Positions 2,516 to 63,759 of a stretch of 64,000 nt of DNA are shown here, one piece after another. Location of the stretch: the NCBI RefSeq assembly GCF_963921235.1, contig NC_086107.1:108812001-108876000 (forward strand), given 5' to 3'. This DNA is from Mobula hypostoma. Lineage: Eukaryota. Position numbers and translations under genes: made by a program. The notes under the pieces were generated by a model. It saw only the letters and a list, made by a program, of their open reading frames with translations. It was not told where the DNA came from and did no database searches. Positions within the stretch are counted from its first letter, which is position 1; every line of letters starts with the position of its first letter.

Positions 2516-2807
2516 TACGACTCTGACTTCCTGCTCGCCACTTGGCTGGACGAATCCAATAACATTCAGGCAGCTCATCATTATCTGGGACAGAGCACCT
2601 TGTTTTTACAGTTCCCCATCCAGCACCTAAGTCATTCATTCCCTCCACCACTGGCACACAAGTGGTTGTAGTGTGTACCACCTACCCAATATACCACCAA
2701 TGTTCACCTACTAAAATATTACTGCTTCACTTAAATCAATAATCTTTATACTTTATATCTAGGACTGTAGGACACTTAGGGGTCACCTTATCGCTTCCTA
2801 CTGCCCC

Positions 2808-4247
2808 TCACTGCGAAGGGCGGAAGTTCCCACTTGCTTCAAAAAGGCAACAATTATACCAGTGCCTAAGAAGAATAATATGAGCTACTTTAATGAATAT
2901 CGCCTTGTAGCACTCACATCTACAGTGACAAAATGCTTTGGAAGGCTGGTCACGACTAGACTGAACTCCTGCCTCAGCAAGGACCTGGACCCATTGCAAT
3001 TTGCCTATTGTCACAATAGGTCAACAGCAGATGCAATTTCAATAGCTCTTCACATGGCCTTAGACCACCTGGACAATACAAACACCTATGTCAGGATGCT
3101 GTTCATCAACTATAGCTCAGCATTGAACACCATCATTCCCACAATTCCGACTGAGAAGTTACAGAACCTGGGCCTCTGTACCTCCCTTCTGCAACTGGAT
3201 CCTTGACTTCCTAATGGGAAGACCACAATCTGTGTGAACTGGTGATATGTCTCCTCTTCATTCATGATCAATACTGGTGCATCTCAGGGGTGTGTGCTTA
3301 GCCCACTGCTCTACTCTCTCTATACCCATGACTGTGTGGCTAGGCATAGATCAAATACCATCTATAAATTTGTTGATGATACAACCATTGTTGGTAGAAT
3401 CTCAGATGGAGACGGGAGGACGTACAGGAGCGAGATATGCCAACTAGTGAAGTGGTGTCACAGCGACAACCTGGCACTCAACGTCAGTAAGACAAAAGAG
3501 CTGATTGTGGATTTCAGGAAGGGTAAGATAAAGGAACACATACCAATCCTCATAGAGGGATCAGAAGTGGAAAGAGTGAGCAGTTTCAAGTTCCTGGGTG
3601 TCAAGATCTCTGAGGACCTAACCTGGTCCCAACATATCGATGCAGCTATAAAGAAGGCAAGACAGCGGCTATACTTCATTAGGAGTTTGAAGAGATTTGG
3701 TATGTCAACAAATACACTCAAAGACTTCTATAGATGCACTGTGGAGAGCATTCTGACAGGCTGCATTACTGTCTGGTATGGGGGGGAGGTGCTACTGCAC
3801 AGGACAGAAAGAAGCTGCAGAAGGTTGTAAATTTAGTCGACTCCATCCTGGGCACTAGCCTACAAAGTACCTAGGACATCTTCAAGGAGTGGTGTCTCAG
3901 AAAGGCAGCGTCCGTTATTAAGGACCTCCAGCACCCAGGGCATGCCCTTTTCTCACTGTTACCATCAGGTAGGAGGTACAGAAGCCCGAAGGCACACACT
4001 CAGCGATTCAGGAACAGCTTCTTCCCCTCTGCCATCCGATTCCTAAATGGACATTGAACCCATGGGCACTACCTCACTTCTGAAAAATACAATTATTTAT
4101 GTGTTTTGCACGATTTTAATCGGTATACTGTAAATTGATTTACTTTTTTTTCTTCTTCTTCGATATTATGTGTTGTATTGAACTGCTGCAGCTCAGTTAA
4201 CAGATTTCAGGACACATGCCGGTGATAATAAACCTGATTCTGATTCT
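2808..4247 (+). mobile_element. 5'-truncated Rex1/Babar-type LINE (RT pseudogene)
   Basis: ORFs 2862-3206 and 3264-3830 contain [45 protein letters not shown] and KARQRLYFIRSLKRFG, with frameshifts and stops; tail AATAAACCTGATTCTGATTCTG. Confidence 0.92.
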
Positions 4248-4610
4248 GGTGTTAGGGCAGCAGTGACAGTCCTCCATCTCTGGCAGTAGCTCGGTTTTCA
4301 CTACTGTCAGTCAGGTAATTCCCCAGTGGAGACTCAGTAATACCATCGCACTCAGATGTAGAAGCATTCTTCAGTACTGTTTCCAGAACAGTTTTGTTTT
4401 ACCGGTCAGGGTTGTTAGCCCTGAAGTGAACCCTGAACCCTGGGGGACCGGTGGACCACTCTTAGTCTGGCCTTTAACCTTTGACCTGTTTGGCATGGGT
4501 AACCCTACCAAGAGCCAAAGCATAAAGCCCCGACTCCAGCCAAAATAGCTCTCCGGGTCATTGAGGCTCACAAGCCTCCAAACCCTACGACAAGTTTGTG
4601 CTCCTCCAAG
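4248..4610 (-). mobile_element. Non-autonomous bipartite RTE-derived element (BovB/Rex3-like 5' UTR joined to an RTE 3' end)
   Basis: Reverse complement of the family at 10218-10535 and 47581-47998. Confidence 0.75.
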
Positions 4611-7039: not shown

Positions 7040-8425
7040 GACACGATATCTTGACGGTATATCTTTCTACCCTATCACCTGTGAAACTGCTATTTCCTTT
7101 TCTCAGTTCCTTCGCCTCTGCCACATCCGTTTCCAGGATGTGGCTTTCCTTTCCAGGACATCAGTGATGCCTTCCTTCTTCAAGGAACAGGGTTTCCCTT
7201 CCTCCACCATTGACGCTGCCCTCACCTTCATCTCCTCCATTTCCCGAACATCCGCACCCACCGCATCTTCTCATCGTCCTAACAGCAATAGACTTCCTCT
7301 TGCCCTTATCTATCACTCCGTGAGCCTCCACATCCAACACTTCATCCTCCACAACTTCCACCATCTCCAAAGGGACCCTACCGCCAAACGTATCTTTACC
7401 TTCCCCCACCCCCTGTGATTCCCTTGTCCGTTCAGCCCTCCCCACTACTCTCCCTCCCGGCACTTATCCCTGCTAACGTCCTAAGCACTACACCTGCCCA
7501 GACACCTCCATTCAGGGCCCCAAATAATCATTCCAAGTGAGGCAACACTTCACCTGCGAATTGAGTTGAGAGTTAGGGGGCAAAAGTTTAGGGGTAACAT
7601 GAGGGGGAACTTCTTTACTCAGAGAGTGGTAGCTGTGTGGAACGAGCTTCCAGCAGAAGTGGTTGAGACAGGTTCGATGTTGTCAGTTAAAGTTAAATTG
7701 GACAGCTATATGGACAGGACAGGAATGGAGGGTTATGGGCTGAGTGCAGGTTGGTGGGACTAGGTGAGAATAAGCATTCGGCACGGACTAAAAGGGCCGA
7801 GATGGCCTGTTTCCGTGCTGTGATTGTTATATGGTTGTCTATTGTGTCCGGTGCTCCCGGTGCGGCCTCCCCTACACTGGTGAGACCTGTCGTAAACTGG
7901 GGGGCCACTTCATTTGGCACCTCTGCTCCATCTGCCACAAGCGGAACTTCCCAGTGGCCAAACATTTTAATTCCCATTCCCATTCTGACATGTCGGAACA
8001 TGGCCTCCTCTTGGGCCAAGGTGAGGCCACCCTCGGGGTGGAGGAGCAACACCTCATATTGCGTCTGGGTAGCCTCCAACCTGATGGCACGAATATCACT
8101 TTCTCCTACAGGTTAAAAAAAAAATCCCTACCCCTCCCCTCCTTCTATTCCCCACTCTGCCTTTTTATCTCTTCTCGCCTGCCTTTTACCTCCCCTTGGG
8201 TCCCCTTCTCCATCCCTTTCTCCTATGGTCCACTCCCCCACTCCTGTCAGATTCCTTCTTCTCCAGCCCTTACCTTTCCTACCCACCTGGCTTCATCTAT
8301 CACCTTTTACCCAGCTTCCTTCCCCCCCATCACTTTTTTTTCCAGTCCTGAAGGGCCCCGGCCTCTCATTTCCGTAGTTACTTCCTCACCTGCTGAGTCC
8401 CTCCAGCATTTTGAACGTGTTGCAC
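7040..8425 (+). mobile_element. Penelope-like retroelement fragment (probably Neptune clade): RT C-terminus, Cys linker, GIY-YIG endonuclease, pLTR
   Basis: AISFSQFLRL..., GTYPC*RPKHYTCP linker, VVYCVRCSRCGLPYTGET (GIY-YIG), EEQHLILRLGSLQPDG-NI; interrupted by a CR1 insertion. Confidence 0.9.
7562..7831 (+). mobile_element. CR1 3' fragment nested in the PLE
   Basis: RGNFFTQRVVAVWNELP...KLDSYMD; splits the PLE just upstream of the GIY motif. Confidence 0.9.
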
Positions 8426-8624
8426 CGAACACGACAGATTTTTATGACAACTTGGAAGTTTCATGGTCATTAGCAACAATATTTTTTGAACTCTATATTA
8501 GCTTCATATATACTTCATTTACAGACTCAGCACATTAACAGGCTCTTCTGGCCCTAAGAGGTTTCACCACACAATTAACATTTAAAGATTCAAAGTACAT
8601 TTATTATCGAAGTACATATACAAA

Positions 8625-9197
8625 CGGGGTGTATGGGGTGTCAGGGAGGGGTAGCACCTCTGGTGGGGGAACATGTCGCGTCCTTTTCAGGGCGGTTAGT
8701 CCACCTTTGGTCCCCACCTGGCATTCAGTTCTCACCTGTGGCTCCCCGTAGCTGTTTGCATGCGACAGCGGCCACACCCCGGGTAATGGCTTCGACAAGC
8801 CGGCTAAACCAGGTGAGGGTAGCCGACGGGTCTCAAACCCTCGGTGAGATAGGGAGTTGTCTATCCCAGCATGTGAAGACGGACTCCGGCGGATTGAGCG
8901 GACCAGACCAACGGAAGGTCCAACGGTCAAGAGGGCGGTCTCTGCAAGCGTCGTGGAACGTGTAGAGCAGGACAAGACACAGAAGACGTCCTGGTCATCC
9001 ACTGCGCCTAGTCCCATCTCCAGCCGTCTCGACTCTGTCTTGCCACTGGATCCAGATGGGAATTGGGAAGAGAGAGTGAGGCTGACGCTGCGCAACTCTC
9101 CCTCACTTAAATCCAAATCATGCGCTAGTCTCGACACCATCATCATCATAATGGTGTCGAGGTCCTCATCGACGACAACGATGGACGAACAACAACA
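8625..9197 (+). mobile_element. Full-length non-autonomous RTE-type retroposon
   Basis: TSD ACATATACAAA (8614-8624 and 9198-9208), (CAA)n tail, 3' hairpin CTCGACACCAT/ATGGTGTCGAG, CpG-rich, no RT ORF. Confidence 0.85.
8626..8817 (+). ncRNA. HDV-like self-cleaving ribozyme (predicted)
   Basis: P1 GGGGTGT 8626-8632/ACACCCC 8774-8780; P2 CTCACCTG 8731-8738/CAGGTGAG 8810-8817; P3 GGC/GCC; L3 TCCCCG; P1.1 CC/GG 8781-8782; P4 GGCTT/AAGCC; J4/2 GG-C8804-TAA. Confidence 0.75.
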
Positions 9198-9999
9198 ACA
9201 TATACAAAATATATCCTGAGAGTTGTCTTCCCACAGACAGTCATGAAACGAGAAACGTCATGGAACCCGCTGAAGAAAACATCAAACACCAACGCATAAA
9301 AAAAGAAATTGCGCAAACGACAAAAAGCAAGCGAACAAAATCGTCTATTAAAACAAGAATCCAGTAGTATTCAGTTGAATTCAGTTCAGCATTGCGCTGC
9401 TAGCCCACTGCAGGCCACAGGGTGAAGCAATCTTCATTGAAGAACTCCAGTCCCATCAATCGCCCTGTTCAAACTGTTCAAAAACAGCTTTAAAAAAGAG
9501 TGACCAGAGTCCAGAAACATGGGCAGCATGAACCCCAAAGTCCCCCAAGACGAGTTCACAGACTCGTTGATCAACATGGAGCCCCAAGGCTCCTGCACTT
9601 CCTTCCTAACAGCAATTAACGAGAGGGAAAGGAAGACCGGGCAAATTCAGGCAGACAGTGGGGAGCACCAGCTGTCCTCAGTTCTCATCCCTACCGACTT
9701 CAACCTTGCTCGACGCCTCAGAGGGGAGCGGTAGAGTCGATTGTGGGCTTAGGCCTGGTCGCCAGCCTTTCAGGCCGCACACTCAGCACCAAGCTCACCA
9801 AACTCCCTCGGGGCGCAGCAAAGCAGCAGATCGCTCAATCCGCACAAAAAAAACAACATCAAAAAGGTTCGATCGCACGCAGCTTGGTCGTAGAATCATA
9901 TTTGACAACAGAAGTAGTAAAAGAATTAGTTTCATGAACTGTCTGCAGGACGTGGCCATTCGCCGCGTTGTTCACTGGCGCCATCTTGCTGGCTCCATG

Positions 10000-49495: not shown

Positions 49496-50039
49496 TCAAA
49501 CAACAGAAAACAGCAGGTTAGGCAGCATTAGTGGAGGGAAATGGACAATCAACTTTTCCAGTCAAGACTCTTCATCTGGACTCAGGCCCACTGTCCATTT
49601 CACTCCACAAGTGCTGCCCGGCCCACTGAGTTGCTCTGGCATTTTGTCTGTTGTGTCTAGATTACTGTGTTCCTCCGATCCTGGCCTCTTGCTCATCTGA
49701 CTGCTGGAATTCCCTCCCCAACATCTCAACCTGTCTCTGAGACTCACCGTTTCTGGAGCATTACAGTTATAGAACAGAGAACAGTGCAGGCCTTACAGCC
49801 CATGATGTTGTGCCTCCGAGATCAATCTAATACCTCCCCCCATTTTCCTTTCAATCACGTGCCTATCTAAGAGTTCTAAGATGAGATGCTGAATTTATTG
49901 TCCCCGGACAGAAGGAAACTGAGAGGTGCCCTAAGAGAACTGAGACCGTGGATAAATAGGGTAGATGGTGAGAGGGGGTATCCCATAGCGGGTGTGTCTC
50001 TTAAGAGAGGCATAGGTTTCAGGTGAGAGGCAGGAGGTT

Positions 50040-52315
50040 TGGAGAGGGGGGGAAGAGGGGGTAAGAGGGAAGGGGGAGAGGTGGGGAAGGGGGAGGAAGA
50101 GTGAGGAAGAGGGGAGAAGAGGGGAAGGGGCAAGGGGAAAAGGGGAAGGGGAGTGGGGGAAGAAGGGAGACAGGGAGTTGGGGAGAGGGGGAGAAGGGGG
50201 TGAGAGGGAGATGGGGAAGAAGGTAAAGGGGAGGGGGCAGAGAGGGGAAAGAGGGGAGTGAGGGGGAGAAGTGAGGAAGGGGGAGGGGGAGGGAGAGGAG
50301 GAGGGGCAGGGAGAGGGAGAGTGTGGAGAGGAGGAGAATGGGGGTGGAAGAGTGGGAAAAGGGGGAAGTGGGTGGAAGTGGGGGAGGGGGAAAGAGGGGG
50401 AAGGGGAAGGGGAAAGGGGAAGGGGAAGGGGAAGAGGGAAGGGGGAAGGGGAAGAGGGACAGGGAAGAGGGATGGGGCAGGAGGCAGAAGGGGCAGGAGG
50501 AGGGGGAAGGGGCAGGAGGAGGGGAAAGGGGCAGGAGGAGGGGGAAGGGAAAGGGGAAGGAGGAAGGGAAAGGGGAAGAGGGATGGGGAAGAGGGAGGGG
50601 CAGGAGGAGGGAAAAGGAGCAGGAGGAAGGGGAAGGGGCAGGAGAAGGGGGAAGGGTAGGAGGGATAGGGAAATGGGAAGGAGAAAAGGGGTAAAGGGGA
50701 GGGGAAATGGGGAGGAGGAAAGAGGGGGAAGAAGGGGAGAAAAGGAAGGGGAGAAGGGAAAGGGGAGGTGGGACAGTTGGGGGAGAGGGGGAGAGGGGGA
50801 GGGGGTAGAGGGGGAAAGAGGGGGAGAGAGAGTGGGAGGGGAGAGGGAGTGTGGAGGGGATGGGGAAGGTGGAGGAAGAGGGGAGAGGTGGAGGAAGAGG
50901 GGGAGAATGGGTGGAAGAGTGGGAAAGGGGGAAGTGGGTGGAAGTGGGGAAAGGGGAAAGAGCGGAAGGGTTAAGGGGAGAAGGAAGGGGGAGAGGAGGA
51001 GAGAGGGGGGAGAGAGAGGGGATAGAGGGGGAGGGGGAGAGAGGGGGAGAGAGAGGGGAGAGAGGGGGAGAGAGAGGGGAGAGAGGGGGGAGGGAGAGAG
51101 AGGGGAGAGAGAGGGAGAGAGAGGGGGAGAGAGAAGGGGAGAGGGGGAGAGAGGGGAGAGGGGGGAGAGAGGGGGAGAGGGGGAGAAGGGAAGAGAGGGG
51201 GAGAGAGAGGGGGAGAGGGGGAGGGGGGAGAGAGGGGGAGAGAGAGGGAGAGAGAGGGGGAGAGAGAAGGGGAGAGAGGCGGGAGAGAGGAGGAGAGACG
51301 GGGAGGGAGGGAGGGGGAGAGAGGGGAGAGGGAGAGAGAGGGGGAGAGGGGGAGAGAGGGGAGAGGGGGAGAGAGGGGGGAGAGAGAGGGGGAGAGGGGG
51401 AGGGGGGAGAGAGGGGGAGAGAGGGGGAGGGGGAGAGGGGGAGAGAGGGGGAGAGAGAGGGAGAGAGGGGGAGAGGGGGAGAGGGGGAGGGGAGGGAGAG
51501 GGGAGAGAGAGGGGGAGAGAGAGGGGGAGAGAGGGTAGAGAGAGAGGGGAGAGAGGGGGGAGAGAGGGGAGGGGGAGAGAGAGGGGGAGAGGGGAGAGAG
51601 GGGGGAGAGGGGGAGAGAGAGAGGGGAGAGAGGGGGAGAGGGGGAGAGAGAGGGGGAGGGGGAGAGGGGAGAGAGAGGGGGAGAGAGAGGGGGAGGGGGA
51701 GAGGGGAGAGAGAGGGGGAGAGAGAGGGGGAGAGAGAGGGGGAGAGGGGGAAGAGATAGGGGAGAGAGGGGGAGGGGAGAGGAGAGGGGAGAAGGGGGAG
51801 GGGAGAGAGAGAGGGGAGAGAGGGAGAGAGGGGGGAGAGGGAGAGAGGGGGGAGAGGGAGGAGGGGGGAGAGGGGGAGAGAGGGTGTGGAGGGGGATGGG
51901 GAAGGTGGAGGAAGAGGGGGAGAAGAGGTGGAAGGGGGAAAGGGGGAAGTGGGTGGAAGGGGGGAAAGGGAGAAAGAGGGGAAGGGTGAAGGGGAGAAGG
52001 AGGAAGGGGAAATGGTGGGAGAGGGGAAAGAGAAGAGGGATGGGAAGGAAGGGGAAGGTGGGAAAAGGGAGAAGGGGAGAACAGAAGGGGAGAAGGGAAG
52101 GGGAGAAGTGGAGAGGAGGGAGTGGGAAGGGGAAGGTGAATGGGGAAGGGGAGGGTGAAGGAAGGAAGGGGAAGGGGGAAGGGGAGGGGGGAGAGGGAAG
52201 GTGAAGAGGGAAGGGAGAAGGGTGAAGGAGGGAAAGGGGAAGGGGAAGAGAAATGGGGAAAGGGGGAAGGGAAGGGGAAGAGGGGAAAAGGGGGAAAGGG
52301 GAAGAGAGAGAGAGA
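50040..52315. repeat. ~2.3-kb polypurine (G/A) low-complexity tract between CR1 fragments
   Basis: Direct reading; recurring ~60-bp subunits near 50325, 50890 and 51905. Confidence 0.98.
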
Positions 52316-57859: not shown

Positions 57860-58200
57860 GGTGGCAGGTTGGACATGCGTCTCTACCAAAGCGGGGTAAG
57901 ATGCTCCTTCCCCCCATTAGCCTGCAGGTCACCCTTGGGCAAGGTGTAGCACCTGCTTAGCCCCCCCCCACCCCCGATCAGGGTCACGCAAAACCAGCCG
58001 GTGTATATCACATGTCCTGGTTATGCGACCACTGACACCAGTCAGGCAATCTCTCAAGAGTATTGATAAAGGCTGGGCTCACCCGTCCTGTAAAGACACT
58101 GTCCAGAAGAAGGCAATGGCAAACCACTTCTGCAAAGAACAATCATGGTCATGAGACCATGATCACCCACATCATATGACGCAGCACATGATGATGATAA
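57860..58200 (+). mobile_element. Non-autonomous RTE-derived element (15905 family)
   Basis: Colinear with 15905-16291; (TGA)n tail; ACAGCACAG on both sides is the probable TSD. Confidence 0.8.
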
Positions 58201-61745: not shown

Positions 61746-62694
61746 GACAAGACTGTCTTGTCTCCCTTTCTCTTCACCATTTACACCTCGGACTTCAACT
61801 ACTGCACAGAGTCTTATCATCTTCAGAAGTTTTCGGATGACTCTGCCATAGTTGGATGCATCAGCAAGGGAGATGAGGCTGAGTACAGGGCTAGGTAGGA
61901 AACTTTGTCACATGGTGTGAGCAGAATTATCTGCAGCTTCATGTGAAAAAGACTAAGGAGCTGGTGGTAGACCTGAGGAGAGCTGAGGTACCGGTGACCC
62001 CTGTTTCTATCCAGGAGGTCAGTGCGGACATGGTGGAGGATTACAAGTACCTGGGGATACGAATTGACAATAAACTGGACTGGTCTAATAACACTGAGGC
62101 TGTCTACAAGAAGGGTCAGAGCCGTCTCTATTTCCCGAGGAGACTGAGGTCCTTTAACATCTGCCGGACGATGCTGAGGATGTTCTATGAGTCTGTGGTG
62201 GCCAGTGTGATCATGTTTGCTGTTGTGTGCTGGGGCAGCAGGTTGAGGGTAGCAGACACCAACAGAATCAACAAACTCATTCGTAAGGCCAGTGATGTTG
62301 TGGGGATGGAACTGGACTCTCTGACGATGGTGTCTGAAAAGAGGATGCTGTCTAAGTTGCATGCCATCTTGGACAATGTCTCCCATCCACTACATAATGT
62401 ACTGGGTGGGCACAGGAGTACATTCAGCCAGAGACTCATTCCTCCGAGGTACAGCACAGAGCATCATAGGAAGTCATTCCTGCCTGTGGCCATCAAACTT
62501 TACAACTCTTCCCTTGGAGGGTCAGACACCCTGAGCCGATAGGTTGGTCCTGGACTTATTTCATAATTTACTGGCATAATTTACATATTACTATTTAACT
62601 ATTTATGGTTCTATTACTATTTATTATTTATGGTGCAACTGTAACGAAAACCAATTTCCCCTGGGATCAATAAAGTATGACTATGACTATTACT
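61746..62694 (+). mobile_element. Rex1-type LINE RT fragment nested in an RTE-derived element (61588-61745 and 62695-62900)
   Basis: TVLSPFLFTIYTSD, KFSDDSAIVG, KTKELVVDLR, KKGQSRLYF; ATATG duplicated at the junctions. Confidence 0.93.
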
Positions 62695-63759
62695 ATATGA
62701 GCAACTGGTGCAGATCAAAGGTCCTGGTTATGTGACCACTGACAGTCTCTGATAAAGGCTGGGGTCATCTGTCTCGTAAAGGCACTGCCTAGAAAGAGGC
62801 AAGGGCAAACCACTTCAGTAGAAAAATTTGCCAACAACAACCATGGTCACAGAAAGACCATGATTGGCCACGTCATACGACACAGCACATAATGAACGAA
62901 TGATCTTGGCATGGATGTGACGTAGCCTCTTCCTTAATAGGAGTGGGAAAAACTTGAAAGGGGCACACAATCTTCCCTGACTCAGCCCCACCTAAAACGA
63001 ACAGTCATCTAGCCAGATCTGGCATCTTCTTTGGCTGGCTTAGAAGTCTGCATTGCTCGGACTCCGAAATCTTTCAAAGAAAACAGCTCCTAGAACATGG
63101 ACAGAAATCTTAGTCGGTATGTTACTATGGCTACGATTAAAGGGCTTCCCATGGTGCCTTGATTGTTAGCATTTCTTTGAAAGAGGTTCTAAAGTAAGTG
63201 ATATAACAGCTCGCCTGTGGGGAGAGCAGTTTGCTGCCTTTTTACTGCTTTGGAACCACTTCCCAAAACTCCTCAACTTTTTTTTTAAACTTAACATGGG
63301 GTTTCAAGCAACTAGTCAAGTTCCACAGTGCTCTCAGTTTGCCTTGGAATTTTTTTTTATAGAGACACTGGATGGTAACAGGCCCTTCTGGCCCATTGAG
63401 CTCGTGCTGCCCAATTACATCATGTGATCAATTAATCTACCCCCCCCCATTGGTTCAACAGTTCCATTTAATATCAGAGAACGTACACAGCATACAACTT
63501 GAAATTCTTACTCTTCGCAGACATCCATGAAACAGAAGAACAATCCCAAAGAATGAACAACAGAAAATGTTAAAACCCCAAACCACTCCCCCGACTCCCA
63601 CTCACAAGCGGCAATGCCTGCATGTTTTTGGACTGTAGGAGGAAAGTAGAGCGCTCAAAGAAACCCACGCGGTCACGGGGAGAACGTACAAACTCCTTGC
63701 AGGCAGTGGCGGGAATTGCACCGGGGTTAGCATCATGCTAACCGCTAGGCTACTTTGCC

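What the first reader, a model, noticed from the sequence alone, without database searches (positions are those of the whole stretch)
8625..9197. 573-bp non-coding retroposon that begins at a predicted HDV-like ribozyme with an extra L3 hairpin
Seen in sequence: every helix of the HDV double pseudoknot is present in order. P1 is 8626-8632/8774-8780, P2 8731-8738/8810-8817, P3 8740-8742/8771-8773, P1.1 8744-8745/8781-8782 and P4 8788-8792/8797-8801. The U20/G25 equivalents are 8743/8748, the J1.1/4 reads GG-GTAAT (HDV has GG-GCAAC), and the catalytic C equivalent is 8804 in GGCTAA. The predicted cut before G8626 falls one base from the left TSD. A second GGGGTGT copy is sequestered in a J1/2 stem (8636-8645/8717-8726). 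A 19-nt hairpin (8751-8769) sits between L3 and P3. Established knowledge: HDV-like ribozymes process the 5' ends of R2 and RTE retrotransposons. Inference: this is a promoter-less, protein-less element that cuts itself out of host transcripts and borrows an RTE enzyme. I cannot tell whether this family or the L3 insertion has been described.
Basis: partly seen in the sequence, partly recalled or inferred. Interest (0 to 1): 0.78.

Follow-up and report, generated by a model that had tools for sequence, protein, structure and literature searches.

The report
Ribozyme-headed short retroposon family
This 573-base stretch is one copy of an abundant non-coding mobile element that starts with what looks like a self-cutting HDV-type RNA carrying an unusual extra hairpin, so the element may free itself from host transcripts instead of carrying a promoter.

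Summary
An 11-bp target-site duplication brackets 8625-9197. The element belongs to a family with at least 2,680 copies in a 3.48-Gb genome.

Three sister families (A, B, C; about 85% alike in the first 200 nt) share the 5' module but carry different 3' ends. All three begin with the proposed P1 strand directly at the insertion site. In a sample chosen without regard to the 5' end, 10 of 19 copies start exactly at G8626.

- **Core helices:** P1, P1.1, P2 and P3 are invariant between families (29 of 29 free positions, against 103 of 138 in the periphery).
- **Other helices:** P4 and the J1/2 stems covary, and the hairpin in L3 is kept.
- **Chance:** a strict HDV descriptor hit only this locus in the window and nothing in 210 Mb of shuffles.

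Four points count against the reading:
- No Rfam HDV model matches.
- G1 pairs with C rather than U.
- One subfamily carries an uncompensated A.C mismatch in P1.
- Cleavage is untested.

No partner LINE was found, so the RTE attribution is unsupported. Ribozyme-headed non-autonomous retroposons are already known, whereas I did not find the L3 hairpin in print.

The parts
8614..8624 (+). left target-site duplication ACATATACAAA
   Evidence: Identical 11-mer at 9198-9208. Other copies have their own 8-13 bp duplications abutting the element.
8625..8625 (+). one extra C between the TSD and G1, not part of the family
   Evidence: 4 of 30 top-scoring copies carry an extra C here. The other full-length copies abut the TSD directly.
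8626..8632 (+). P1 5' strand GGGGTGT. The predicted cleavage is 5' of G8626, which is the family's 5' end.
   Evidence: Seven Watson-Crick pairs with 8774-8780. 10 of 19 copies sampled without regard to the 5' end start exactly here. The strand is invariant in the majority sequences of families A, B and C.
8633..8730 (+). J1/2, a 98-nt structured insert. It holds the second GGGGTGT (8635-8641), the closing stem 8636-8645/8717-8726 and inner stems.
   Evidence: The stems are in the MFE fold and the closing stem is in the RNAalifold consensus. Family-level compensatory changes occur at alignment columns 50/86, 55/81 and 63/79.
8729..8738 (+). P2 5' strand
   Evidence: Pairs with 8810-8819 over 10 bp, the outer two being G.U in this copy. 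97.3% of cells are paired across 37 copies.
8740..8742 (+). P3 5' strand GGC
   Evidence: Pairs with GCC 8771-8773. 96.4% of cells are paired.
8743..8750 (+). L3 core TCCCCGTA. T8743 and G8748 are the U20 and G25 equivalents. C8744-C8745 form P1.1 with G8781-G8782.
   Evidence: Families B and C read TCCAAGTA. The U, the CC and the G are kept while the two middle bases vary.
8751..8769 (+). extra hairpin inside L3: GCTGT, loop TTGCATGCG, ACAGC
   Evidence: 97.1% of cells are paired. Family B lacks one base on each side of the stem and keeps a 4-bp hairpin. Only 4 copies genome-wide lack the hairpin.
8771..8782 (+). P3 3' strand (8771-8773), P1 3' strand (8774-8780) and the P1.1 GG (8781-8782)
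   Evidence: Read directly. The stretch is invariant between family majorities and was not forced by my sampling pattern.
8783..8802 (+). J1.1/4 (8783-8786) and P4 (8787-8792/8797-8802, loop CGAC)
   Evidence: The family A majority reads GGGCAAC. P4 covaries: GGCTT/AAGCC in A, CGTCT/AGACG in B, CGCTT/AGGCG in C.
8803..8809 (+). J4/2 GCTAAAC with C8804, the proposed catalytic C
   Evidence: Reads GGCTAAAC in A and C and GGCCAAAC in B. The C is kept.
8810..8819 (+). P2 3' strand
8820..9005 (+). body shared with sister families B and C
   Evidence: B matches query positions 1-381 at 81% and C matches 2-381 at 72%.
9006..9197 (+). family-A-specific 3' module: a perfect 10-bp hairpin (9130-9139/9152-9161) followed by a tail ending in CAA/ACA repeats
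   Evidence: Homology to B and C ends at 9005. The inverted repeat was read directly and found by BLAST. Tail repeats of variable length appear in other copies.
9198..9208 (+). right target-site duplication

Best explanation
The stretch 8626-9197 is a dead copy of a young, abundant, non-coding retroposon mobilised by a LINE.

Its conserved head (8626-8819) folds as an HDV-like double-pseudoknot ribozyme. The head has a 98-nt structured J1/2 insert and an extra hairpin between L3 and the 3' strand of P3.

Proposed mechanism:
1. Source copies carry no promoter of their own and are transcribed as part of longer host transcripts (inferred).
2. The ribozyme cuts 5' of G8626 and so sets the exact 5' end of the transposition template (inferred from anatomy and from where copies begin).
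3. The 3' hairpin plus the CAA/ACA repeat tail is recognised by the reverse transcriptase of an unidentified LINE. That enzyme copies the RNA into a staggered nick and leaves 8-13 bp duplications (the duplications are shown; the enzyme is unknown).

The head is a module that has been joined to at least three different 3' ends (families A, B, C).
For: **A real mobile family**
- 40 of 40 scored genome matches are full length and 95-97% identical apart from the window copy itself, out of 3,677 first-look candidates.
- Exact 22-mers of the P2-P3-L3 region occur 1,845 times (CCCCG type) and 835 times (non-CC type). The reversed-pattern control gave 0 in both searches.
- Private TSDs flank the copies.
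- 5'-truncated copies exist.
- Contigs of other runs join 8608-8622 to 9215-9217, which are empty sites of the surrounding repeat.

**5' end**
- Of 19 A-type copies taken as every fifth of the first 100 places listed for an internal 22-mer, 10 start exactly at G1 and 3 more probably do (point changes). One has an extra 5' repeat unit, one is ambiguous, and 4 are truncated.
- Families B and C start with the same GGGGTGT.

**Core**
- All HDV helices are present in order.
- The family majority reads GGGCAAC after P1 and GGCTAAAC before P2. That these resemble HDV's own joining regions is recalled, not tested.

**Between families (about 85% pairwise identity)**
- 29 of 29 unforced P1, P2, P3 and P1.1 positions are identical, against 103 of 138 peripheral positions.
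- P4 has compensatory changes at 3 of its pairs, and the J1/2 stems at 3 more.
- Over all 63 pairs, 89.6% of cells are paired, against 33-49% when partners are slid.
- 79 cells have changes on both sides, against 36.5 +/- 7.7 in shuffles (0 of 500 reach it).

**Chance**: the strict descriptor gave 0 loci in 210 Mb of shuffles.

**Energetics**: the nested part of the HDV fold scores -67.3 kcal/mol, and a P2 duplex of -14.2 would add to it. The nested MFE is -77.8.

**Not a classical SINE head**
- ARAGORN finds no tRNA.
- Rfam finds no tRNA, 5S or 7SL match at E up to 10.
- TTTT at 8684-8687 would stop RNA polymerase III. This rests on recalled knowledge.

**Non-coding**
- No Pfam match for the three frames tested.
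- Indels between families are not multiples of three.
Against: - Self-cleavage was not tested.
- No Rfam HDV-type model matches the region, and RF00094 found nothing in the genome among the 84 candidates scored out of 46,579.
- G1 pairs with C (20 G-C and 6 G-U among 37 rows, the G-U being CpG decay). The cleavage-site pair in HDV itself is a G.U wobble (recalled).
- P1, P2, P3 and P1.1 show no family-level covariation, so they are supported by conservation only. Only three lineages exist, so independent events are few. Control (a) does not preserve relatedness.
- 8 of 30 family-A copies share G8631A with no change at 8775. This is an A.C mismatch in P1 in a subfamily (linked to T9150) that still multiplied.
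- Two P1 registers are possible, 8626 and 8635.
- RNAalifold prefers a competing local hairpin 8740-8743/8750-8753 over P3.
- The MFE fold is no better than shuffles.
- A hairpin in L3 has no precedent that I know of, and it could block the fold.
- D-type copies (L079, L081, L083) carry the 3' half of the ribozyme behind a different 5' head that lacks the P1 strand, yet at least three share that junction.
- The 22 positions 8733-8754 were fixed by my sampling pattern for B and C, so their conservation is not evidence.
Confidence: 0.72

Rival explanations
1. The conserved head is a structured RNA with another role, such as a binding platform for the reverse transcriptase, a stabilising fold or an internal promoter. 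It only resembles an HDV ribozyme, or it descends from one that no longer cuts. The sharp 5' end would then be a transcription start set by an internal promoter, as in L1Tc Pr77.
For: - No Rfam HDV match.
- G1-C in place of G.U, and an uncompensated P1 mismatch in a subfamily that multiplied.
- D-type copies lack the P1 5' strand.
- The L3 hairpin is without known precedent.
- P1-P3 are invariant rather than covarying, as sequence-specific protein or promoter sites would be.
- L1Tc and NARTc combine a promoter and a ribozyme in one 77-nt head (PMC3383444, start of abstract as shown in the search listing).
Against: - Every HDV helix and joining region is present in order, and the strict descriptor found none in 210 Mb of shuffles.
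- The first base of P1 is the first base of the element in three families.
- L3 varies only at the two positions that are not the U, CC or G equivalents.
- An internal T4 run and the lack of tRNA, 5S or 7SL likeness argue against RNA polymerase III.
Confidence: 0.2
2. The head is an active HDV-like ribozyme, but the element is an internally deleted derivative of an autonomous LINE that carries the same ribozyme and the same 3' end, like NARTc from L1Tc or SIDEs from R2. On this view it is not an independent head-plus-tail family.
For: All described non-autonomous elements with 5' HDV-like ribozymes that I could find are of this kind (PMC3414825, PMC3383444 and PMC4035085, starts of abstracts as shown in the search listings).
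Against: - Pattern searches that keep an anchor and exclude the family's own neighbouring bases found almost nothing else. The tail search gave 2 hits, the 9006 junction 4 hits that look like the family's own copies, and other continuations after the shared module 1 hit.
- These searches need exact anchors of about 20 nt, so a LINE more than about 5% diverged would be missed.
Confidence: 0.15
3. The HDV-like motif is a chance arrangement in a GC-rich repeat.
For: - The lenient descriptor hits about 0.17 times per window of shuffled sequence.
- The fold is not more stable than shuffles.
- Earlier ribozyme proposals for retroposon heads in other genomes of this scan were rejected.
Against: - Strict descriptor: 0 loci in 210 Mb of shuffles.
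- Shuffles of 8626-8826 itself: 60 of 255,827 pass even the lenient descriptor.
- The motif coincides with the element's first base.
- The core is conserved and P4 covaries across three families.
Confidence: 0.02

Closest known systems
HDV-like ribozymes at the 5' ends of non-LTR retrotransposons (R2, R4/Dong, Baggins, RTE, L1Tc)
   Same: A double-pseudoknot ribozyme whose cleavage site is the element's first base. It frees the element RNA from a longer co-transcript. The J1/2 insert can be long and structured: 216-498 nt in silkmoth R2 (PMC3774820, passages read). P1.1, P3 and L3 are the most conserved parts (same paper).
   Different: Those elements encode their own enzyme, whereas this one has 573 non-coding bases. 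Here L3 carries a 19-nt hairpin, G1 pairs with C, and no Rfam model detects it.
NARTc, RIME and SIDER of trypanosomatids, and R2 SIDEs of Drosophila (non-autonomous elements with a 5' HDV-like ribozyme)
   Same: Short non-coding elements that keep the ribozyme at their 5' end and depend on a LINE enzyme (PMC3383444, PMC4035085 and PMC3414825, starts of abstracts as shown in the search listings). A review states that some non-autonomous SINEs use hammerhead or HDV-like ribozymes (PMC6765202, passage read).
   Different: Those are deletion derivatives that share head and tail with a known parent LINE. Here no parent was found, and one head is joined to three different 3' modules. The genome is a 3.48-Gb animal-type genome, not a trypanosome, and the insertions are not in rDNA.
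Classical SINEs (tRNA-, 7SL- or 5S-derived head with a LINE-derived tail)
   Same: Similar size, high copy number, TSDs, 5' truncations, head-body-tail modularity, and a tail with a hairpin and short repeats.
   Different: There is no recognisable RNA polymerase III head, and a T4 run lies 59 nt from the 5' end. A ribozyme-like fold occupies the place of the promoter.
Ribozyme-bearing repeats of other classes: schistosome Sm-alpha hammerhead SINEs, retrozymes, and twister variants in S. mansoni non-LTR elements
   Same: A self-cleaving motif used to process the RNA of a mobile element (PMC6765202 and PMC7761336, passages read; PMC8501958, start of abstract as shown in the search listings).
   Different: The ribozyme class is different. 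Those elements rely on tandem copies or circular RNAs, for which I saw no sign here. The one close pair I examined is two separate insertions.

Membership tests
HDV-like self-cleaving ribozymes | Nested double pseudoknot with P1, P2, P3, P1.1 and P4 in the canonical order, and P3 3' directly followed by P1 3' and the P1.1 GG | tested here: met
   Read in the sequence. My descriptor finds only this locus in the window. 89.6% of cells are paired in 37 copies.
HDV-like self-cleaving ribozymes | A conserved C in J4/2 (the C75 equivalent), and L3 with U, CC and G at the U20, C21/C22 and G25 positions | tested here: met
   C8804, T8743, C8744-C8745 and G8748 are kept in the majority sequences of families A, B and C. 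Only 8746-8747 vary, CC against AA. The position equivalences are recalled from the HDV literature.
HDV-like self-cleaving ribozymes | A G.U wobble at the cleavage-site pair of P1 (typical but not universal; recalled) | tested here: not met
   G8626 pairs with C8780. Among 37 rows there are 20 G-C and 6 G-U, the G-U arising from CpG decay.
HDV-like self-cleaving ribozymes | A short L3 of about 7-8 nt closing P3 directly (recalled) | tested here: not met
   28 nt lie between the P3 strands: 8 nt of L3, a 19-nt hairpin and 1 nt. Hairpin-less copies number 4 genome-wide and are decayed C-type copies with private deletions.
HDV-like self-cleaving ribozymes | A match to curated covariance models (Rfam HDV_ribozyme and relatives) | tested here: not met
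   No match at gathering score, none at E up to 10 in 8500-9300, and RF00094 found none in the genome. The long J1/2 and the L3 insert would be expected to defeat these models.
HDV-like self-cleaving ribozymes | Site-specific self-cleavage giving a 5'-OH product, dependent on the catalytic C | not testable with these tools
   Needs a transcription and cleavage assay. The available runs were contigs, which cannot show RNA ends.
Ribozyme-terminated non-LTR retroposons | The predicted cleavage site coincides with the element's 5' boundary next to the TSD | tested here: met
   10 of 19 unbiased copies start exactly at G1, plus 3 probable. Among the 30 best full-length hits, 19 abut the flank at G1 and 4 do so with one extra C. 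Families B and C show the same start.
Ribozyme-terminated non-LTR retroposons (NARTc/SIDE type) | Head and tail shared with an autonomous parent LINE in the same genome | tested here: inconclusive
   Negative-code pattern searches found 2, 4 and 1 hits, none of them a LINE.
Classical SINEs | A head derived from tRNA, 7SL or 5S with an internal RNA polymerase III promoter | tested here: not met
   ARAGORN found 0 genes. Rfam at E up to 10 lists no tRNA, 7SL or 5S. The A-box-like and B-box-like strings that I looked for by eye are not kept in families B and C.
   No LINE with this tail was found. The abundant LINE I sampled is APE+RT with an A-rich tail. The window's own LINE fragments end in other repeats. 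No RTE sequence was available to search with.

The most novel reading that the evidence does not exclude
These may be a distinct kind of SINE-like retroposon. Its heritable head is not a polymerase III promoter but an HDV-like ribozyme of a new structural subtype, with a helix inserted between L3 and P3 and a G-C cleavage-site pair.

The head would behave as a portable 5'-end-defining module that has recombined with at least three different LINE-type tails in a large animal genome.

Because the L3 helix and the long J1/2 defeat the curated models tried here (Rfam), and probably published descriptors too, such ribozymes could be widely overlooked.
Probability: 0.45. Interest if true: 0.72.

Novelty: new variant of a known kind. 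Interest (0 to 1): 0.6.

Why it matters
If the head cleaves, three things follow.
- An HDV-type fold would be shown to tolerate a helix inside L3, next to the active site. That would widen the descriptors used to find these ribozymes.
- It would document a high-copy retroposon lineage that solves the promoter problem by cutting itself out of host transcripts and swapping tails between LINE partners.
- Thousands of copies inside host transcripts would be potential RNA cleavage sites, with possible effects on host gene expression.

If it does not cleave, it is an ordinary abundant repeat with a conserved structured head.

Tried and rejected
- **Rfam.** Gathering scan of the window, permissive scan of 8500-9300 and RF00094 over the genome: nothing HDV-like. 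The five weak hits are on the minus strand, far below their cut-offs, and I treat them as chance.
- **tRNA origin.** None found.
- **Partner LINE.**
  - The Pfam RVT_1 search returned 150 matches. All 30 loci fetched belong to one 97-99% identical family without similarity to the element. That family has APE+RT and an A-rich tail, so it is L1-like.
  - The search with the 3' 98 nt returned 40 full-length 3'-end matches that cannot be told apart from the family's own copies; of the three fetched, two are full copies and one is a 5'-truncated copy.
  - Three negative-code pattern searches found no LINE.
This limited sampling to 69 short stretches.
- **RNA evidence.** All runs offered were contigs, their RNA status was a guess, and contigs cannot show ends. 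I draw no conclusion on expression. They do show the element, its variants and the empty flanking sites in the runs of four coded organisms.
- **Tandem copies.** One pair 576 bp apart proved to be two separate insertions with a 68-nt spacer.
- **Coding capacity.**
  - An antisense open frame of 190 codons spans the family-A element (16 of 2,000 shuffles reach it) and is free of stops in 19 of 30 copies.
  - It is absent from families B and C and has no Pfam match, so I rejected it as coding.
- **Hairpin-less relatives.** Only 4 exist, all decayed C-type copies. There is no sign of a canonical ancestor.
- **Earlier notes of this scan.** None for this genome or this sequence.
- **Papers.** Ruminski 2011 and Webb 2009 are not held. 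Whether they describe SINE-like examples or L3 inserts could not be checked. The searches found no L3-hairpin HDV variant and no vertebrate ribozyme-headed SINE. Dfam and Repbase could not be searched.
Full report
**What is there**

I read 8400-9400 directly.
- P1: GGGGTGT 8626-8632 with ACACCCC 8774-8780, seven Watson-Crick pairs.
- P2: 8731-8738 with 8810-8817, extendable to 10 bp (8729-8738/8810-8819).
- P3: GGC 8740-8742 with GCC 8771-8773.
- P1.1: C8744-C8745 with G8781-G8782.
- P4: 8788-8792 with 8797-8801, plus a sixth pair 8787/8802.

L3 reads TCCCCGTA and is followed by a 19-nt hairpin (8751-8769). One G and the 3' strand of P3 come next. C8804 lies in GGCTAAAC. ACATATACAAA occurs at 8614-8624 and again at 9198-9208, and a single C (8625) separates the left copy from G8626. 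The 3' part holds a perfect 10-bp hairpin (9130-9139/9152-9161) and ends in CAA/ACA repeats.

**It is a mobile family**

The window lies in a 3.48-Gb assembly of 200 contigs.
- The element has 3,677 first-look candidates. All 40 scored matches are full length, and apart from the window copy itself they are 95-97% identical.
- Exact counts of a 22-mer spanning P2, P3 and L3 are 1,845 for the CCCCG form and 835 for forms with two non-C bases there. The reversed pattern gave 0 in both.
- Copies have private 8-13 bp target-site duplications.
- 5'-truncated copies exist. L063 holds only the last 103 nt and has its own duplication.
- Contigs from four public runs of coded organisms carry the element. 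Some join 8608-8622 directly to 9215-9217. So the flanks are themselves a repeat whose other copies lack the insertion.

**Where copies begin**

The 30 best hits are biased towards full length. Nineteen abut their flank exactly at GGGG, 4 carry one extra C, and 7 lack 1-7 nt.

For an unbiased view I took every fifth of the first 100 places listed for the internal 22-mer and fetched only their 5' sides, 19 copies in all.
- 10 start exactly at G1.
- 3 probably do, with point changes.
- 1 is ambiguous.
- 1 has an extra copy of the 9-nt unit GGGGTGTAT.
- 4 are truncated, by 2, about 8, about 8 and more than 50 nt.

Apart from that extra unit, no copy shows family homology upstream of G1.

**Sister families**

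The read-laying output showed many contigs that match only from 8702 onward. It also showed a frequent CC-to-AA change at 8746-8747. A pattern that forbids C at those two positions pulled out these relatives. I fetched 36 of them as 226-321-nt stretches.

They fall into family B (8 copies) and family C (19 copies). The rest are three D-type copies with another 5' head, five deeply truncated copies and one family-A variant.
- B and C share the first 380 nt or so with the window's family A, at 81% and 72% identity to the window copy.
- Homology ends at 9005, and each family has its own 3' module.
- Copies are 98.5% (A), 90.5% (B) and 86.3% (C) identical to their family majority. The three majority sequences are about 85% alike in 8626-8826.
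- All three begin GGGGTGTATGGGGTGTC at the flank.

**Comparative test of the fold**

In the majority sequences, P1, P2, P3 and P1.1 are identical in all three families. That is 29 of 29 positions not fixed by my sampling pattern. The periphery has 103 of 138 identical.

| Region | Family A | Family B | Family C |
|---|---|---|---|
| L3 core | UCCCCGUA | UCCAAGUA | UCCAAGUA |
| After P1 | GGGCAAC | GGTAAAC | GGTACAC |
| P4 | GGCTT/AAGCC | CGTCT/AGACG | CGCTT/AGGCG |
| J4/2 | GGCTAAAC | GGCCAAAC | GGCTAAAC |

- In L3 only the two middle positions change. They are not the U20, C21/C22 or G25 equivalents.
- The window copy's GGGTAAT is private C-to-T decay.
- P4 shows compensatory change at three pairs.
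- The L3 hairpin is kept in all three. Family B lacks one base on each side of its stem.

On a 37-row alignment I counted the full structure. I had dropped L069 and L095 for internal deletions, and I limited family A to 12 of its 31 copies.
- 89.6% of 2,297 cells are paired, against 33-49% when partners are slid.
- 79 cells are changed on both sides, against 36.5 +/- 7.7 in shuffles (0 of 500 reach it).
- The covariation comes from P4 and the J1/2 stems (columns 50/86, 55/81, 63/79).

The HDV-specific helices do not covary, so they rest on conservation alone. With three lineages the number of independent events is small.

RNAalifold sees nested pairs only. It recovers the J1/2 closing stem, a 10-bp P2 and P4, and it offers a competing hairpin 8740-8743/8750-8753.

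**Chance and energetics**
- A lenient descriptor of my own hit 118 loci in 91 Mb of dinucleotide shuffles of the window, and 60 of 255,827 shuffles of 8626-8826.
- A strict one matched to the observed quality hit 0 loci in 210 Mb. In the real window it hit this locus alone, in two registers, 8626 and 8635. Both descriptors are post hoc.
- The MFE fold is not more stable than shuffles.
- The nested part of the HDV fold scores -67.3 kcal/mol. A P2 duplex of -14.2 would add to it. The nested optimum is -77.8.

**What speaks against a working ribozyme**
- No Rfam HDV-type model matches.
- G1 pairs with C rather than U.
- 8 of 30 family-A copies share G8631A without a change at 8775. They are linked to T9150, so this is a subfamily with an A.C mismatch in P1 that still multiplied.
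- D-type copies carry the 3' half of the fold behind an unrelated head that lacks the P1 strand.
- I could not find a helix inside L3 in the papers I could search. Its effect on the active site is unknown.
- Only 4 copies genome-wide lack the hairpin, and all are decayed C-type copies with private deletions. So the hairpin belongs to the source elements.

**Promoter, coding capacity and partner**
- Promoter. ARAGORN and Rfam find no tRNA, 5S or 7SL likeness. TTTT at 8684-8687 would end polymerase III transcription (recalled knowledge). That the element is promoter-less remains an inference.
- Coding capacity. The three frames I tested have no Pfam match. An antisense open frame of 190 codons in family A is unusual (16 of 2,000 shuffles reach it). 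It is absent in B and C, and the indels between families are not in threes.
- Partner. The abundant young LINE in this genome is L1-like with an A-rich tail and shares nothing with the element. Searches that keep a family anchor but exclude the family's neighbouring bases found 2, 4 and 1 hits, none of them a LINE.

The RTE attribution is therefore untested. A parent LINE with the same head was not found, though a diverged one would have been missed.

**Comparison with what is known**
- HDV-like ribozymes that set the 5' end of R2, R4/Dong, Baggins, RTE and L1Tc RNAs are established.
- Long J1/2 inserts are known: 216-498 nt in silkmoth R2 (PMC3774820, passages and section 15 read).
- Non-autonomous elements with such heads are known in trypanosomatids and as R2 SIDEs (PMC3383444, PMC4035085 and PMC3414825, starts of abstracts as shown in the search listings).
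- A review says that some SINEs use hammerhead or HDV-like ribozymes (PMC6765202, passage read).

The kind is therefore known. Three things appear new:
- the L3 helix together with a G-C cleavage-site pair;
- one head joined to three different tails, with no parent LINE in sight;
- the scale, at least 2,680 copies in a large animal-type genome.

I could not check Dfam, Repbase, Ruminski 2011 or Webb 2009.

**Verdict**

The ribozyme reading is well supported by anatomy, position and family comparison, but it is unproven. The RTE part is unsupported.

Noticed in passing
window 8565-8622 and 9215-9264: The DNA flanking the element is itself a high-copy repeat. Contig depth is high there, and contigs of other runs join 8608-8622 to 9215-9217 without the element.
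   Followed up: partly
window 8626-9197, minus strand: An open frame of 190 codons runs antisense through the whole family-A element. 16 of 2,000 shuffles reach it, and 19 of 30 copies have no stop. It is absent in families B and C and has no Pfam match.
   Followed up: partly
L079, L081+L100, L083+L101: D-type copies join the element from about 8702 onward to a different 5' head (…GAAGAATTTGAAGG…) that lacks the P1 strand. At least three copies share the junction.
   Followed up: partly
L122 (G000:C1:192951012-192951151): One copy has an additional GGGGTGTAT unit, plus a partial one, at its 5' end. The 9-nt 5' repeat therefore varies in number.
   Followed up: no
window 8756-8764: The loop of the L3 hairpin holds the palindrome GCATGC, kept in families A and B. 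It could support loop-loop dimerisation; this is pure speculation.
   Followed up: no
L126-L129: These are the only four copies in the genome that lack the L3 hairpin. All lie on the + strand of their contigs. Two deletion types leave L3 at 8 or 11 nt.
   Followed up: yes
L111 (G000:C1:36572771-36572910): A family-A copy inserted into another copy in the opposite orientation. Its upstream flank is the reverse complement of the P4 region.
   Followed up: no
window 57990-58200 and 62716-62910: Two copies of another short repeat containing GGCAAACCACT and ending in ATG/GAT repeats. The 3' module of family B shares a 27-nt stretch with it. From memory the motif resembles the 3' region of BovB/RTE elements, which I did not test.
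   Followed up: partly
window 2763-4260 and 61895-62715: LINE fragments with RVT_1 and ALKBH8_N matches. They end in GATTCT-type and ATGACT-type short repeats after AATAAA-like signals.
   Followed up: partly
L031-L060, L104: A very young LINE family, 97-99% identical, with an open frame of up to 1,264 aa, APE+RT domains and an A-rich tail. It dominates the 150 scored matches (all 30 loci fetched) among 332,530 first-look reverse-transcriptase candidates.
   Followed up: partly
window 50001-52000: A 2-kb stretch of 65% G+C with GC skew 0.97 and AT skew 0.81, almost pure purine on the + strand. It gives long open frames in several frames.
   Followed up: no
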